NCBI GenBank assembly: GCA_036517195.1
Contig: DATDXU010000005.1
Span: 4,975-68,974, forward strand
Length of the DNA stretch: 64,000 nucleotides
Source: Minisyncoccota bacterium
GTDB taxonomy: Bacteria > Patescibacteriota > Minisyncoccia > Phycocordibacterales > UBA2100
Direction of reading: 5' to 3'
The translations under genes were made by a program, and so were the position numbers. Below are positions 5,485 to 8,348 of this stretch, in pieces (position 1 is the stretch's first letter; every line of letters begins with the position of its first letter). The notes below the pieces were generated by a model. It was not told where the DNA came from. It made no database searches and was given only the letters and a program-made list of their open reading frames with translations.

Positions 5485-5544
5485 TCCTCGCAGGGAGTGA
5501 TGTTTTAGTGTATCCACGCACCAAAGGATCACCGCGTTATATAA

Positions 5545-5653: not shown

Positions 5654-5704
5654 TGCGGGATCATCTAGTGGTAGGACTTCTCCCTCTGGAGGAGAGTATC
5701 TTGG
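5654..5704 (+). pseudogene. Truncated tRNA-Gln-like fragment (5' 51 nt, D-arm and anticodon arm only)
   Basis: Matches the first 51 nt of the intact tRNA-Gln at 5774 with 2 mismatches, then diverges. It has no T-arm and no acceptor 3' strand. Confidence 0.5.
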
Positions 5705-5773
5705 CCCGCCCCGTTAGATATTTTTGTAGAATACGCGGTTGATACTACAATACACACAGCTTGTTTCCATCGC

Positions 5774-5844
5774 TGCGGGATCGTCTAACGGTAGGACTTC
5801 TCCCTCTGGAGGAGAGTATCTTGGTTCGAGTCCAAGTCCCGCAG
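5774..5844 (+). tRNA. tRNA-Gln (anticodon CTG)
   Basis: Hand-folded cloverleaf with acceptor TGCGGGA/TCCCGCA, anticodon loop CTCTGGA and T-arm CTTGG-TTCGAGT-CCAAG. Confidence 0.75.
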
Positions 5845-5900
5845 CGATGGGCGTAAGCATGCAGATGCCAGTAGTATATGTATATCTAACGGGGTGAAAA

Positions 5901-5915
5901 TCCAAGTCCCGCAGC
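5901..5915 (+). repeat. 15-nt duplicate of the tRNA-Gln 3' end (TCCAAGTCCCGCAGC)
   Basis: Identical to 5831-5845. It abuts the left direct repeat of the islet. Confidence 0.6.
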
Positions 5916-5950
5916 CAGGTTTGAGATAGGTTCGGACTCCGAGGAGCATT
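5912..5950. repeat. Left direct repeat of the islet (CAGCCAGGTTTGAGATAGGTTCGGACTCCGAGGAGCATT)
   Basis: Repeated at 7574-7610 with a single 1-nt indel. Confidence 0.75.
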
Positions 5951-5957
5951 AAAAACT

Positions 5958-6341
5958 ATGAATAATCAAAACAAAGAACCTTGGCAAATAACAGCAGCTC
6001 GGTTTTGCGTAGAGAGAAAAGAGTTTACCTTAAGGGGGTTGGAGACTTTTTTGAAGGAAGAACCGTACAACATTCCTCACGAACACGTAAGAAATTTTTT
6101 CATAGAAAATATTCAAAATCCTCCAGGGCGACAATTCAACAGAGATTTTCGAAAGAGTGCCGAAGGAGAAGGTGGATTGTGGACTGCTCCTTCTGACCTT
6201 GTATCCATGGTGACAGATTATGATGAATTGAGAGAGGCAAGAGAGAGTAGTAGAAAGGCAATGTATATTGCAATCGGGTCTTTGATCGTTGCTACACTAG
6301 TTGGCATTGCTCAAATCATTGTACAGATTTATTACAAATAA
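5958..6341 (+). CDS. Hypothetical protein with a C-terminal TM anchor
   Basis: 127-aa ORF in the islet. The C-terminal hydrophobic helix is IAIGSLIVATLVGIAQIIV. Confidence 0.4.
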   Translation: MNNQNKEPWQITAARFCVERKEFTLRGLETFLKEEPYNIPHEHVRNFFIENIQNPPGRQFNRDFRKSAEGEGGLWTAPSDLVSMVTDYDELREARESSRKAMYIAIGSLIVATLVGIAQIIVQIYYK

Positions 6342-6345
6342 CTTT

Positions 6346-6783
6346 ATGAAGATAATTACTAAAAAGGAATCTGGCAATTCAGGAGAGCAAGAGATTGTAG
6401 ACCTTATCCCATGTCCGAATTGCGGGAAGAAATTGATGAAACTTCCATCAAACTATCCTTTATATGATGTCCAGTGCACTGGGTGTTCATTCCGTGCTCA
6501 AGTTAAAACAAATCAAAGTAAACCAAAATCAGTAGTTTTTGGAGCCGGGTGGCAAATTATGAACAAGGTATTGAAGTCTGGTTATATGACACCACCTCTT
6601 TTTCTAAACTTTAAATGGACAGAGAAAGATGATCAAAAACAAGAAGTCAGATTTTACCCCTTCGTGCCAAAGAAAAATCTCTCTAACTATCGTTTGTCTG
6701 CAACAGCACGTCGTGCAAATTATGAAATGTTTACCTATACGGGAATGGATAAGCTTCCGTATTTTCTAGTATATAAAAAATGA
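6346..6783 (+). CDS. Hypothetical zinc-ribbon protein
   Basis: CPNCGKK...x16...CTGCSF is a pair of CxxC motifs. It overlaps the next ORF by 4 bp (ATGA). Confidence 0.4.
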   Translation: MKIITKKESGNSGEQEIVDLIPCPNCGKKLMKLPSNYPLYDVQCTGCSFRAQVKTNQSKPKSVVFGAGWQIMNKVLKSGYMTPPLFLNFKWTEKDDQKQEVRFYPFVPKKNLSNYRLSATARRANYEMFTYTGMDKLPYFLVYKK

Positions 6784-7478
6784 ACAAGATTCAGGATGAC
6801 ATATTAAGTTATCGTGAGATGTGTGACGCAGAAAATATACAGACACTCCAGCGCGGTATGAATTTTCGAATGAAACCAACATACTCTGTTATTTTGATGT
6901 CTCAAAGATCAAACGCACCGTATCAAGATAGAATTCACGAAGACGGCATAACGATTGAATATGAGGGTCACGATGTTTCTAAAAGAGCTCACGACCATAA
7001 TCCAAAGGCCGAGGATCAGCCAGACAAGTTACCGAGTGGTCGATTAACTCAAAATGGATATTTCATAAAAGCCGCTAAAGACTATAAGGAAAGAGGAACT
7101 GCCCCAGAGTTGGTAAAAGTATATGAAAAGGTATTTCCCGGCGTGTGGTCTCTAAAGGGATTTTTTGATCTAATAGATTACAAAATATTTAATGATGGAA
7201 AACGTAATACGTTTCGTTATATTTTAAGACTTTCTGATCATGGAGAGACGGACACGAGGGTACCGACAAACATCGAACATACTCGCCTAATACCTTCAGA
7301 TGTAAAAAGAGAAGTTTGGAAACGGGATCAGGGTAAATGTGTAATCTGTGGAAATTCTAAGAATTTACACTTCGACCATGATTTACCATTTTCTAGGGGT
7401 GGAACCAGTTTATCAGCAAAGAATGTACGCCTGCTTTGTGTGACTCATAATCTTCAGAAATCAGATAAAATTGAATAG
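6780..7478 (+). CDS. Predicted modification-dependent (type IV-like) restriction endonuclease with an N-terminal SRA/YDG-like domain and a C-terminal HNH nuclease
   Basis: The C-terminus CVICGNSKNLHFDHDLPFSRGG...NVRLLCVTHN is an HNH His-Me finger. The N-terminal block YSVILMS...YQDRIHEDGITIEYEGHD plus VKVYEKVFPGVWSLKGFFDLIDYKI resembles the SRA motifs [26 protein letters not shown] and RYDGIYKVV. This comparison was made from memory, with no search. Confidence 0.55.
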   Translation: MNKIQDDILSYREMCDAENIQTLQRGMNFRMKPTYSVILMSQRSNAPYQDRIHEDGITIEYEGHDVSKRAHDHNPKAEDQPDKLPSGRLTQNGYFIKAAKDYKERGTAPELVKVYEKVFPGVWSLKGFFDLIDYKIFNDGKRNTFRYILRLSDHGETDTRVPTNIEHTRLIPSDVKREVWKRDQGKCVICGNSKNLHFDHDLPFSRGGTSLSAKNVRLLCVTHNLQKSDKIE

Positions 7479-7573
7479 TTGCTCGTTCCTGAAGAGCATC
7501 AAAATAGTAAACTTAAAAGCGTCAGAAAAGCTTTATGGGGTCTCACTTTGAAAAATACGAGACCGAAGGGGTC

Positions 7574-7610
7574 AGCCAGTTTGAGATAGGTTCGGACTCC
7601 GAGGAGCATT
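7574..7610. repeat. Right direct repeat of the islet
   Basis: CAGCCAG-TTTGAGATAGGTTCGGACTCCGAGGAGCATT matches 5912-5950. Confidence 0.75.
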
Positions 7611-7618
7611 GTATCTAT

Positions 7619-8212
7619 ATGCTAAAAATTAGTTTGAGCAAGTATCAACTGAACGAATGTTTAAATTCGTTTTGTTGGACTTTTAAGATTGGCGATAACA
7701 TTCTTTATAATTTAGATCTCATATTCCAACTTGTGGACGACCACAATAAGCTAGCGGGGCGCAAATATGCTAAGCCCATATCAATACTCTGTGTCTCAGT
7801 TATAGAGGGAGCACTTGTTGATTTTTTAGAACGTTTAGATTCTGCAACGCGACATTTCCCGAGTAAACTAGACTCGAAAAAAAAGGACATAAAGAAAGAA
7901 TTAGAGGGAAAAAAGAATGATTTTGAGATAATCTACAAAGGGAAGGTTTATAAGTATAAACGACTAAAAAATTTCGGGTACAAAGAATTGATAAAGTTTT
8001 ACGAGGATTTTAAGATTCTAGGTTCAAGGTCTGCCGATTATCAGATACTGCAAGAGCTGGGTCGTTTCCGCAATCGGGTCCATATTCAAAATTACTTTAG
8101 AAACTTTGAACAAAATGAGTCCTGTACATTCTCTGAAAACAGAAGCCAGAGAGCTATTGATTACATGGAAAGTGTATTTAAATACCTTAGTAAAAACTAT
8201 CCGCGCCCATAA
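7619..8212 (+). CDS. Hypothetical protein from AT-rich DNA, possibly HEPN/Abi-like
   Basis: K/E-rich protein of about 197 aa in low-GC DNA just outside the right direct repeat. ELGRFRNRVHIQ resembles the Rx4-6H motif of HEPN/Abi_2 proteins, but this is weak. Confidence 0.35.
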   Translation: MLKISLSKYQLNECLNSFCWTFKIGDNILYNLDLIFQLVDDHNKLAGRKYAKPISILCVSVIEGALVDFLERLDSATRHFPSKLDSKKKDIKKELEGKKNDFEIIYKGKVYKYKRLKNFGYKELIKFYEDFKILGSRSADYQILQELGRFRNRVHIQNYFRNFEQNESCTFSENRSQRAIDYMESVFKYLSKNYPRP

Positions 8213-8348
8213 TTCATTTTCATTGTTGTCTCAGCTTCGGCCCACTCAGCTGTTCCGAGAAGGGTCGAAATGGTAGAATAAAAGTAATCAAAAAAGTCTT
8301 ATAGAGCTTGATGGGTAAATTTACAAGATCGAGAGGGCCAGCAAAAAT

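What the first reader, a model, noticed from the sequence alone, without database searches (positions are those of the whole stretch)
6780..7478. SRA(YDG)-like N-terminal domain fused to a C-terminal HNH nuclease (type IV, modification-dependent restriction architecture)
The C-terminal 55 aa form a canonical His-Me finger (C-x2-C...HFDHDLP...N...H). The N-terminal block YSVILMS..YQDRIHEDGITIEYEGHD plus a later VKVYEKVFPGVWSLKGFFDLIDYKI parallels the SRA blocks ([24 protein letters not shown] and RYDGIYKVV) that bind 5mC/5hmC. SRA-HNH fusions (the ScoMcrA/TagI type) cleave modified DNA.
Basis: inference. Interest (0 to 1): 0.65.

Follow-up and report, generated by a model that had tools for sequence, protein, structure and literature searches.

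The report
SRA-HNH modified-DNA restriction nuclease
This 232-residue gene, in a small low-GC island of an uncultured Patescibacteria genome, fuses a methylcytosine-reader (SRA) domain to an HNH nuclease, so it is an ordinary but so far unlabelled member of the restriction enzymes that cut chemically modified foreign DNA.

Summary

- **SRA fold.** An AlphaFold2 model (pLDDT 74) finds only SRA domains among its top 50 PDB matches: SUVH5/6, KRYPTONITE, MspJI, ScoMcrA, AspBHI, UHRF1/2 and AbaSI.
- **Pfam.** The query gets no SAD_SRA match. However, 26 of 41 relatives (32-74% identical) match it across almost the whole profile, at 22-29 bits in the ten scanned singly, just under the 30.7-bit cut-off.
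- **Pocket.** A family profile aligns to SUVH5 so that Q24/G26 fall on the thumb residues Gln392/Gly394. Y48/D50/Y61 fall on the 5mC-pocket residues Tyr416/Asp418/Tyr428. All five are invariant in 81 species-level homologues.
- **HNH.** The motif is complete: C187, C190, C220 and H/C223 for zinc, plus D199-H200, N215 and N224.
- **Family.** It has at least 7960 sequence clusters, mostly in Patescibacteria but also in other phyla and archaea. Purifying selection is strong (omega about 0.04, synonymous sites saturated). It sits in changing defence contexts.
- **Local context.** The gene overlaps by 4 nt a DpnI-like nuclease gene, next to tRNA-Gln. That pairing is not general (3 of 80 loci).

Verdict: a modification-dependent SRA-HNH restriction endonuclease, a new member of a known kind. 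The substrate (5mC or 5hmC) is inferred, not shown.

The parts
6780..7478 (+). SRA-HNH gene, 232 aa plus stop. Its ATG overlaps the TGA of the upstream gene (ATGA).
   Evidence: ORF list; at least 7960 homologous clusters; omega about 0.04.
6780..7235 (+). SRA (SAD/YDG) domain, residues about 1-152. Proposed thumb Q24-R25-G26 at 6849-6857; proposed flipped-base pocket Y48 (6921-6923), D50 (6927-6929) and Y61 (6960-6962); YDG-equivalent G127.
   Evidence: Foldseek top 50 all SRA; SAD_SRA in 26/41 relatives; profile alignment to SUVH5 with residue roles from PMC4740795; invariance in 81 sequences.
7236..7289 (+). Variable inter-domain linker, residues about 153-170.
   Evidence: pLDDT below 50 for residues 157-168; non-conserved columns in A1.
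7290..7475 (+). HNH (beta-beta-alpha-Me) nuclease, residues about 171-232. Zinc ligands C187, C190, C220 and H223 (H in 60, C in 20 of 81 homologues). Catalytic D199-H200, with N215 and N224.
   Evidence: PHROG HNH E=1.6e-9; Pfam HNH/HNH_5; IscB and Gme HNH alignments; model strands 196-199 and 217-220 plus helix 221-230; conservation.
6346..6783 (+). Upstream, translationally coupled gene for a 145-aa DpnI-like catalytic domain. It has two CxxC pairs, D41...Q52-V-K54, and no winged-helix domain.
   Evidence: Pfam DpnI E=4.9e-10 and PADLOC mREase_II; DpnI 4esj E=0.0025 with alignment; 1565 homologous clusters, and D..QxK invariant in the 121 aligned (the query and the best 120 hits); DpnI active-site residues from PMC3424567.
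5774..5845 (+). tRNA-Gln(CTG) at the left edge of the low-GC island.
   Evidence: ARAGORN; GC drops from about 0.50 to 0.35-0.41 over about 5850-8300.
5901..5915 (+). Exact 15-nt repeat of the tRNA-Gln 3' end, an att-like scar between the tRNA and the island genes.
   Evidence: 0.07 matches expected by chance. The same arrangement occurs in L012, L055 and L070.
5919..5950 (+). Left copy of a perfect 32-nt direct repeat. The right copy is at 7579-7610. The pair brackets orf127, the DpnI-like gene and the SRA-HNH gene.
   Evidence: the repeat finder family D2.
7579..7610 (+). Right copy of the 32-nt direct repeat, 8 nt upstream of the 197-aa gene's ATG.
   Evidence: homologues of the downstream gene are 197 aa and start at the ATG at 7619.
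5958..6341 (+). 127-aa ORF of unknown function, the first gene of the island, with a hydrophobic C-terminus.
   Evidence: no family hits; found only on contigs identical to the window.
7619..8212 (+). 197-aa helical protein of unknown function, the last gene of the island, with an invariant F-R-N-R-x-H motif.
   Evidence: AF2 pLDDT 88; no PDB fold match.

Best explanation
The gene encodes a stand-alone, modification-dependent (Type IV-like) restriction endonuclease of the SRA-HNH architecture. Shown here: the N-terminal 150 residues have the SRA fold and keep every residue SRA domains use to flip and hold a modified cytosine. These are a thumb-loop Gln (Q24) that fills the gap and pairs with the orphan G, two tyrosine walls (Y48, Y61), and a carboxylate (D50) that reads the Watson-Crick edge of cytosine. 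Also shown: the C-terminal 60 residues are a complete zinc-stabilised HNH nuclease. Inferred: the SRA domain docks on 5-methyl- or 5-hydroxymethyl-cytosine in incoming phage or plasmid DNA. The HNH domain, tethered by a flexible linker of about 18 residues, then nicks or cuts a few base pairs away. It probably acts as a dimer and probably prefers Mn2+/Mg2+, as TagI and ScoA3IV do. The host would escape by not carrying that modification. In this genome the gene is co-transcribed and translationally coupled with a DpnI-like (6mA-dependent type) nuclease gene. The island next to tRNA-Gln would therefore attack both cytosine- and adenine-methylated invaders. The pairing is an accessory feature of a sub-clade and not part of the enzyme's mechanism.
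For: Fold: all 50 listed PDB matches are SRA domains, including the restriction enzymes MspJI, AspBHI, ScoMcrA and AbaSI. The best viral match is a ScoMcrA-like SRA protein of HHPV3. Sequence: 26/41 relatives hit SAD_SRA across the full profile, and the family profile hits SUVH5 SRA. Pocket: Q24, G26, Y48, D50 and Y61 align to SUVH5 Gln392, Gly394, Tyr416, Asp418 and Tyr428. They are invariant in 81 species-level sequences and at least 83% conserved in 41 diverse relatives. TagI uses the same set: Gln35, Tyr55, Asp58 and Tyr67. HNH. The H/C alternation at position 223 is what a zinc ligand would show. Function retained: omega is about 0.04 with saturated dS, and GC3 of 0.14-0.67 tracks the host flank GC. 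Defence setting: the gene lies in a low-GC island at a tRNA. In other genomes its neighbours are Nhi-like DUF2075 helicases with MazG-like genes, MvaI/BcnI restriction-modification systems, Fic, an M78/DUF4411 pair and DpnI-like genes. No methyltransferase is paired with it here: no MTase motif was found in 64 kb by regex.
Against: No biochemical evidence exists for any member of this clade. The query itself does not reach any Pfam SRA threshold, and its relatives sit just under the gathering score. The model is of moderate confidence (pLDDT 74), and I could not inspect its coordinates, so the pocket assignment rests on a profile-to-sequence alignment of marginal E-value (0.015). One SRA-wH-HNH enzyme, HHPV4I, has an apparently inactive SRA domain and is 6mA-dependent (PMC10101028), so an SRA domain alone does not prove cytosine-modification dependence. 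Purifying selection is stronger than I would expect for a restriction gene (my expectation; no comparison set was analysed here). The host's own methylation state is unknown.
Confidence: 0.78

Rival explanations
1. A two-subunit enzyme. The DpnI-like protein lacks a winged-helix domain and has Q in place of the catalytic E. It would form an obligate complex with the SRA-HNH protein, with one partner sensing 6mA and the other 5mC or providing the cut.
For: The genes overlap by 4 nt (ATGA). The same pair, overlapping by 4 nt or separated by about 10 nt, recurs in three other species-level genomes (L007/L012, L013, L015), although synonymous sites between them are saturated. DpnI's E64 is replaced by an invariant Q52 in the DpnI-like family.
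Against: Only 3 of 80 species-level SRA-HNH loci have the DpnI-like gene. The closest relative, L011 (89% identity), lacks it. All three DpnI-like genes whose contexts I examined stand without an SRA-HNH gene. Both families are abundant on their own (at least 7960 and 1565 clusters).
Confidence: 0.1
2. The SRA domain is a vestigial or differently specific DNA-binding module, as in HHPV4I. The enzyme would be a sequence-specific or 6mA/4mC-dependent HNH nickase and not a 5mC/5hmC-dependent one.
For: HHPV4I precedent. The query's SRA is divergent enough to miss Pfam. There is a one-residue insertion between the two pocket tyrosines relative to SUVH5. According to PMC4740795, a one-residue insertion in the equivalent loop enlarges the pocket in UHRF2.
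Against: All thumb and pocket residues are invariant over saturated synonymous divergence, which is hard to explain for an unused pocket. The conserved Asp is described as the determinant for cytosine over thymine or purines (PMC6212794). No winged-helix or other reader domain is present in the 232 residues.
Confidence: 0.08
3. A selfish homing-type HNH endonuclease whose spread across phyla reflects its own mobility, with no defence role.
For: Relatives 64-89% identical occur in Patescibacteria, Acidobacteriota, Proteobacteria, Omnitrophota and archaea. The gene recurs next to tRNA-Gln, with att-like repeats. Phage HNH families match the C-terminus.
Against: It is not inside an intron, an intein or a conserved host gene. 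No full-length copy occurs in 50,697 phage or 72,556 plasmid records. Its neighbours are defence genes. Synonymous saturation with amelioration of GC3 indicates long residence under selection and not recent self-spread.
Confidence: 0.03

Closest known systems
TagI / ScoA3IV (Sco5333) / TbiR51I: bacterial SRA-HNH Type IV restriction endonucleases (PMC6212794, PMC4333417, PMC6765204)
   Same: Same two-domain order (N-terminal SRA, C-terminal HNH). Same pocket logic: a thumb Gln, two Tyr walls and an Asp (TagI Gln35, Tyr55, Asp58, Tyr67). No cognate methyltransferase. Located in defence islands.
   Different: No detectable sequence similarity to TagI or ScoMcrA in profile searches of PDB sequences at E<=10, and TagI is not among the top 50 fold matches. 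The described homologues are mostly from high-GC Actinobacteria and Proteobacteria, whereas this clade is mostly from Patescibacteria and DPANN archaea. Its SRA is closer to the eukaryotic SAD_SRA profile (26/41 relatives) than to the bacterial PF18491 SRA profile (2/41).
SUVH5 / SUVH6 / KRYPTONITE and UHRF1/2 SRA domains (eukaryotic 5mC/5hmC readers)
   Same: Best fold matches and the only SRA sequence hit in the PDB. The thumb and pocket residues coincide with SUVH5 Gln392, Gly394, Tyr416, Asp418 and Tyr428.
   Different: Those are reader modules of histone methyltransferases or ubiquitin ligases with no nuclease. The query has one extra residue between the two pocket tyrosines.
ScoMcrA (SBD-SRA-HNH) and MspJI / AspBHI (SRA-PD-(D/E)XK), AbaSI / PvuRts1I (PD-(D/E)XK-SRA)
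   Same: SRA sensor fused to a nuclease. All appear among the fold matches.
   Different: ScoMcrA has an extra sulfur-binding domain. The others have a different nuclease fold or domain order.
HHPV4I (SRA-wH-HNH, Gm6ATC-dependent, archaeal virus; PMC10101028)
   Same: SRA plus HNH. The best viral fold match is the SRA protein of the related virus HHPV3.
   Different: HHPV4I needs a winged-helix domain for 6mA recognition, and its SRA appears inactive. The query has no winged-helix domain and an intact pocket.
R.DpnI (for the upstream partner gene)
   Same: Pfam DpnI catalytic-domain match. Two CxxC zinc pairs in the same places, and the D and K of the active site conserved.
   Different: 145 aa, with no C-terminal winged-helix domain. 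E64 of the ExK motif is an invariant Gln.

Membership tests
SRA-HNH modification-dependent restriction endonucleases (TagI/ScoA3IV type) | N-terminal domain with the SRA (SAD/YDG) fold | tested here: met
   Foldseek against the PDB: all 50 listed hits are SRA, E about 1e-5, TM to SUVH5 SRA 0.59-0.66. SAD_SRA matches in 26/41 relatives.
SRA-HNH modification-dependent restriction endonucleases (TagI/ScoA3IV type) | Flipped-base pocket (two aromatic walls plus a carboxylate) and a thumb residue that replaces the flipped base | tested here: met
   Profile alignment to SUVH5 maps Y48/D50/Y61 and Q24/G26 onto Tyr416/Asp418/Tyr428 and Gln392/Gly394. All are invariant in 81 sequences. The test rests on alignment, not on inspected coordinates.
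SRA-HNH modification-dependent restriction endonucleases (TagI/ScoA3IV type) | C-terminal HNH/beta-beta-alpha-Me nuclease with a catalytic His and zinc-binding Cys/His | tested here: met
   PHROG HNH E=1.6e-9. D199-H200, N215, N224, C187, C190, C220 and H/C223 are conserved in the 80 of 81 sequences that have the residue (one has a gap). The beta-beta-alpha pattern is present in the model.
SRA-HNH modification-dependent restriction endonucleases (TagI/ScoA3IV type) | Solitary nuclease without a cognate protective methyltransferase | tested here: met
   There is no MTase in the island, and a motif regex found none in the 64-kb window. In 80 loci only 5 have an MTase nearby, and there it accompanies an MvaI/BcnI REase. 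The regex is crude and the rest of the genome was not seen.
SRA-HNH modification-dependent restriction endonucleases (TagI/ScoA3IV type) | Cleavage dependent on 5mC/5hmC in the substrate | not testable with these tools
   This needs enzyme assays or in vivo restriction tests.
SRA-HNH modification-dependent restriction endonucleases (TagI/ScoA3IV type) | Detectable sequence homology to the characterised members (same evolutionary family, not just the same architecture) | tested here: not met
   Neither TagI nor ScoMcrA is hit by single-sequence or profile searches of PDB sequences at E<=10. ScoMcrA is matched only by fold. I therefore file this as the same kind of enzyme but a separate clade.
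Pfam SAD_SRA (PF02182) | Score at or above the gathering cut-off (30.7 bits) | tested here: not met
   The query has no hit at E<=1. Of the ten relatives scanned singly, seven match at 22-29 bits over profile positions of about 19-148 of 148. The best E among all 41 is 8.1e-8.
DpnI family (PF06044), for the upstream partner | PD-(D/E)XK catalytic domain with two CxxC pairs and the D...ExK motif; C-terminal winged-helix 6mA reader | tested here: inconclusive
   The Pfam score of 39.8 bits exceeds the 26.7-bit cut-off, and the CxxC pairs, D and K are conserved. However, E is replaced by an invariant Q, and the winged-helix domain is absent.

The most novel reading that the evidence does not exclude
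The SRA-HNH protein and the truncated, E-to-Q DpnI-like protein encoded by the overlapping upstream gene work as one dual-sensor restriction module, possibly a heteromer in which the HNH does the cutting for both readers. More broadly, this unusually constrained clade would serve in several multi-gene systems: with a MazG-like gene and an Nhi-like DUF2075 helicase in about 30% of loci, and with the DpnI-like gene in a sub-clade. Its role there would be that of a shared modified-DNA sensor or effector, not only that of a solitary Type IV enzyme.
Probability: 0.12. Interest if true: 0.55.

Novelty: new member of a known kind. Interest (0 to 1): 0.3.

Why it matters
SRA-HNH enzymes are an established class, so the finding changes no concept.

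It does give a function to a very large family. There are at least 7960 sequence clusters, and 472 candidate stretches encoding a relative were confirmed across a scan of 185,579 species genomes. Public annotation leaves this family as 'hypothetical' or plain 'HNH endonuclease', because its SRA domain scores just under the Pfam threshold. The family is concentrated in Patescibacteria and DPANN archaea, whose defence repertoires are poorly known.

At 232 residues this is a compact SRA-HNH protein, and it is very strongly conserved. That could make it a convenient reagent for mapping 5mC/5hmC, if the specificity is confirmed.

Tried and rejected
**On the SRA-HNH gene**
- Direct family scans of the query (Pfam, NCBIfam, PADLOC) gave only weak HNH hits and no SRA.
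- Sequence searches of the PDB with the query and with the close-homologue profile gave only HNH hits. Only the more diverse profile reached SUVH5.
- An obligate DpnI-like partnership is rejected on co-occurrence counts.
- A homing endonuclease is rejected on context, selection pattern and absence from phage and plasmid records.

**On the surroundings**
- The promoter/terminator scan of the island was no better than shuffles.
- The motif regex for C5 and N6/N4 methyltransferases in the window found nothing.
- A structure prediction and fold search for the downstream 197-aa gene gave a confident model but no PDB match. Its HEPN-like R..H motif therefore stays unconfirmed.
- Literature searches for this clade in Patescibacteria and for a MazG + DUF2075 + nuclease system found nothing specific.
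Full report
**1. The observation**

The ORF at 6780-7478 (+) exists as described: 232 codons, with an ATG that overlaps the stop of the upstream ORF as ATGA. They sit at residues 35-65, residues 112-136, and in the C-terminal C187-x2-C190...H197-F-D-H200...N215...C220-x2-H223-N224 block.

The ORF lies in a stretch of about 2.4 kb (about 5850-8300) whose GC content is 0.35-0.41, against about 0.48 for the window. The stretch begins right after tRNA-Gln(CTG) at 5774-5845.

The gene is real and functional.
- A search of 5.8 billion proteins returned at least 7960 clusters. The best 120 are 72-90% identical over the full length.
- Against 80 species-level homologues, synonymous sites are saturated (mean pS 0.82) while the proteins remain 64-89% identical.
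- Omega is about 0.04-0.05 for the two closest pairs, where dS is best estimated.
- GC3 ranges from 0.14 to 0.67 and follows the GC of the flanks (r = 0.73). The copies have therefore resided long in their genomes under strong purifying selection.

**2. What the two domains are**

*Direct scans.* Scans of the query find only the HNH part, and weakly:
- Pfam HNH 19.5 bits against a 21.4-bit cut-off.
- IscB-type HNH in NCBIfam and the PDB.
- PHROG HNH families, clearly significant at E=1.6e-9 for residues 175-230.
- No SRA hit at E<=1.

*Fold.* An AlphaFold2 model built on 62 homologues has pLDDT 74. Its core is a beta-barrel-like domain (residues about 7-151), followed by a disordered linker (157-168) and a beta-beta-alpha unit (196-230). 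Foldseek against the PDB returns only SRA domains in the 50 listed matches:
- SUVH6, KRYPTONITE and SUVH5 (E about 1e-5; TM 0.59-0.66 normalised to the 140-150-residue SUVH5 SRA chains).
- The restriction enzymes MspJI, ScoMcrA, AspBHI and AbaSI.
- UHRF1/2.

The best viral match is a 'ScoMcrA-like SRA domain' protein of Haloarcula virus HHPV3, and the remaining viral matches are HNH proteins.

*Sequence bridge to SRA.* An exhaustive HMMER search with residues 1-165 against 1.84 billion representatives found 750 relatives: 401 at E<=1e-10 and 42 at E<=1e-30. Of 41 mostly full-length relatives (32-74% identical), 26 match Pfam SAD_SRA and 24 match HNH. Ten were scanned singly. Seven of them match SAD_SRA over profile positions of about 19-148 of 148, at 22-29 bits, just under the 30.7-bit gathering score. 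That explains why the whole family carries no SRA label in the precomputed annotation.

*Pocket residues.* A profile of these relatives hits the SUVH5 SRA sequence in the PDB (E=0.015). In that alignment:
- The family's LQRGMNF motif falls on Gln392-Ser393-Gly394 of SUVH5.
- APYxD falls on Tyr416-Asn-Asp418.
- IEYEGHD falls on Tyr428.

According to PMC4740795, Gln392 is the thumb residue that replaces the flipped base and pairs with the orphan guanine. Tyr416 and Tyr428 stack on the flipped 5mC/5hmC, and Asp418 reads its Watson-Crick edge. TagI uses the equivalent Gln35, Tyr55, Asp58 and Tyr67 (PMC6212794).

The corresponding Q24, G26, Y48, D50 and Y61 are invariant in all 81 species-level sequences. 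They are 83-98% conserved in the 41 diverse relatives.

*HNH residues.* In the HNH part, C187, C190, D199, H200, N215, C220 and N224 are conserved in the 80 of 81 sequences that have the residue; one has a gap there. Position 223 alternates between His (60) and Cys (20), as expected of a zinc ligand.

**3. Context here and elsewhere**

In the window the island holds four + strand genes:
- A 127-aa ORF with no relatives outside identical contigs.
- A 145-aa DpnI-like gene (6346-6783).
- The SRA-HNH gene.
- A 197-aa helical protein (true start 7619, as its homologues show).

*The DpnI-like gene.* It matches Pfam DpnI above threshold (39.8 bits), a PADLOC 'methyl-directed REase' model, and DpnI itself. 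It keeps both CxxC zinc pairs and the D and K of the active site. It has an invariant Gln where DpnI has E64, and it lacks the winged-helix domain.

The pair recurs in three other species-level genomes (L007/L012, L013, L015), with the same 4-nt overlap in two of them and a gap of about 10 nt in L015. It is nevertheless absent from 77 of 80 loci, including the closest relative, L011. The DpnI-like gene stood without an SRA-HNH neighbour in all three other contexts I examined. I therefore read the pairing as two independent modification-dependent nucleases kept together in one sub-clade.

*Other genomes.* Confirmed hits came from 472 candidate stretches in a scan of 185,579 species genomes. The best 80 loci come mostly from Patescibacteria. 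Others come from Acidobacteriota, Proteobacteria, Omnitrophota, Bacteroidota, Methanobacterium, Thermoplasmatota and DPANN archaea. Some of these assignments could reflect binning errors, but several are on contigs of a megabase or more.

- The commonest neighbours are a MazG-like gene and an Nhi/AbiO-like DUF2075 (SLFN-g3) helicase, some of them with a C-terminal S24 peptidase domain. They are present in 22-24 of 80 loci, usually in the order MazG, helicase, SRA-HNH, often with 4-nt overlaps.
- Five loci have an MvaI/BcnI REase with its N4/N6 methyltransferase.
- Others have Fic or an M78/DUF4411 pair.
- A same-strand tRNA lies within 2 kb upstream in 13 of 80 loci, and it is tRNA-Gln in 9.
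- In L062, L067 and L073 the gene starts 16-25 nt after tRNA-Gln.
- In L012, L055, L070 and the window, copies of the tRNA 3' end lie between the tRNA and the gene. This marks the site as an integration hot spot.
- No full-length homologue exists in the phage or plasmid collections.

**4. Mechanism**

Shown: the gene has the SRA fold, an intact base-flipping pocket, a complete HNH motif and strong selection. It sits in defence-island contexts and has no partner methyltransferase.

Inferred, from TagI, ScoA3IV and the SUVH5/UHRF1 complexes:
- The SRA domain flips a 5-modified cytosine out of invading DNA.
- The tethered HNH cuts nearby.
- The enzyme probably acts as a dimer and with a Mn2+/Mg2+ cofactor.
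- The host avoids self-damage by lacking the modification.

The conserved Asp argues for cytosine over thymine or purines. The one-residue insertion between the two tyrosines, relative to SUVH5, may widen the pocket towards 5hmC, as reported for UHRF2. That last point is speculation.

**5. Rivals**

- An obligate heteromer with the DpnI-like protein (about 0.10).
- A vestigial or re-purposed SRA, as in the 6mA-dependent HHPV4I (about 0.08).
- A homing-type selfish HNH (about 0.03).

The evidence for and against each, and the result that would refute each, are in the Rival explanations section.

**6. Comparison and novelty**

The protein works like TagI/ScoA3IV and meets every structural criterion of the SRA-HNH class. 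It shows no detectable sequence relationship to the characterised members. Its SRA resembles the eukaryotic SAD_SRA profile more than the bacterial PF18491 profile.

It is therefore a new, very large and taxonomically distinct clade of a known kind of enzyme, not a new kind. Interest is modest. It rests on the size and 'dark' status of the family, on its unusually strong conservation, and on the recurrent operon partners, which remain to be explained.

Noticed in passing
window 5654-5915: A 51-nt copy (94%) of the 5' part of tRNA-Gln lies at 5654-5704 and ends at the T-stem. An exact 15-nt copy of the tRNA's 3' end lies at 5901-5915. Together they flank the intact tRNA-Gln (5774-5845). A perfect 13-nt inverted repeat (5709-5721 / 5882-5894) sits just inside them. 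This looks like an outer tRNA-Gln split in its T-loop by a 196-nt insert that carries a replacement tRNA-Gln, or like scars of successive integrations.
   Followed up: partly
window 5919-5950 and 7579-7610: A perfect 32-nt direct repeat (GTTTGAGATAGGTTCGGACTCCGAGGAGCATT). Each copy lies about 8 nt upstream of an ATG (orf127 and the 197-aa gene). The pair brackets the 1.66-kb block orf127 + DpnI-like + SRA-HNH, which suggests a cassette insertion or a shared 5' UTR/RBS module.
   Followed up: partly
window 7484-7578 and 8254-8347; L012 4697-4800; L021 and L022 at about 5486-5538: An intergenic element of about 95 nt occurs twice in the window: downstream of the SRA-HNH gene and upstream of the OmdA-family gene. 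It occurs again downstream of the SRA-HNH gene in other genomes, with a conserved core GTTCCGAGGAGCGTCAAAATGGTAGAATAAAAGTAATCA. It may be a promoter/UTR or a recombination site.
   Followed up: partly
window 6346-6783: The 145-aa DpnI-domain protein belongs to its own highly conserved family. That family has 1565 clusters; the best 120 hits are 72-93% identical, and those named by a source are from Patescibacteria-group bacteria or Nanoarchaeota. The Gln replacing DpnI's catalytic Glu64 is invariant in the 121 aligned sequences, and no winged-helix domain is present. Whether it is an active nuclease is open.
   Followed up: partly
L014, L018, L021, L022, L027, L031, L032, L041, L043, L047, L053, L060, L075, L086, L089 and others: A recurrent three-gene arrangement occurs in 22-24 of 80 loci: a MazG-like gene (115-135 aa), then an Nhi/AbiO-like DUF2075 (SLFN-g3) helicase (the longer, about 770-800-aa versions carry a C-terminal S24 peptidase domain), then the SRA-HNH gene. 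The genes often overlap by 4 nt. The arrangement spans bacterial phyla and archaea. I found no description of it as a defence system.
   Followed up: partly
window 7619-8212: The last island gene encodes 197 aa (the 225-aa ORF call is too long). Its AlphaFold2 model is confident (pLDDT 88): a helical bundle with a beta-hairpin. It has an invariant F-R-N-R-x-H motif reminiscent of HEPN, but no Pfam, PADLOC or PHROG hit and no PDB fold match.
   Followed up: yes
L012, L055, L062, L067, L070, L073 (tRNA-Gln upstream of the SRA-HNH gene): tRNA-Gln lies just upstream of the SRA-HNH gene in 9 of 80 species-level loci, as close as 16-25 nt. In L012, L055 and L070, repeats of the tRNA's 3' end lie between the tRNA and the gene. 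This indicates repeated insertions at this tRNA, with the SRA-HNH gene on the distal side.
   Followed up: partly
P0213 (429 aa) and P0268 (309 aa), relatives: The same SRA-type domain also occurs fused to a D12-class N6-adenine methyltransferase, without an HNH domain in the sequence held. It also occurs fused to a different HNH_2-type nuclease, so the sensor domain is shuffled among partners.
   Followed up: no
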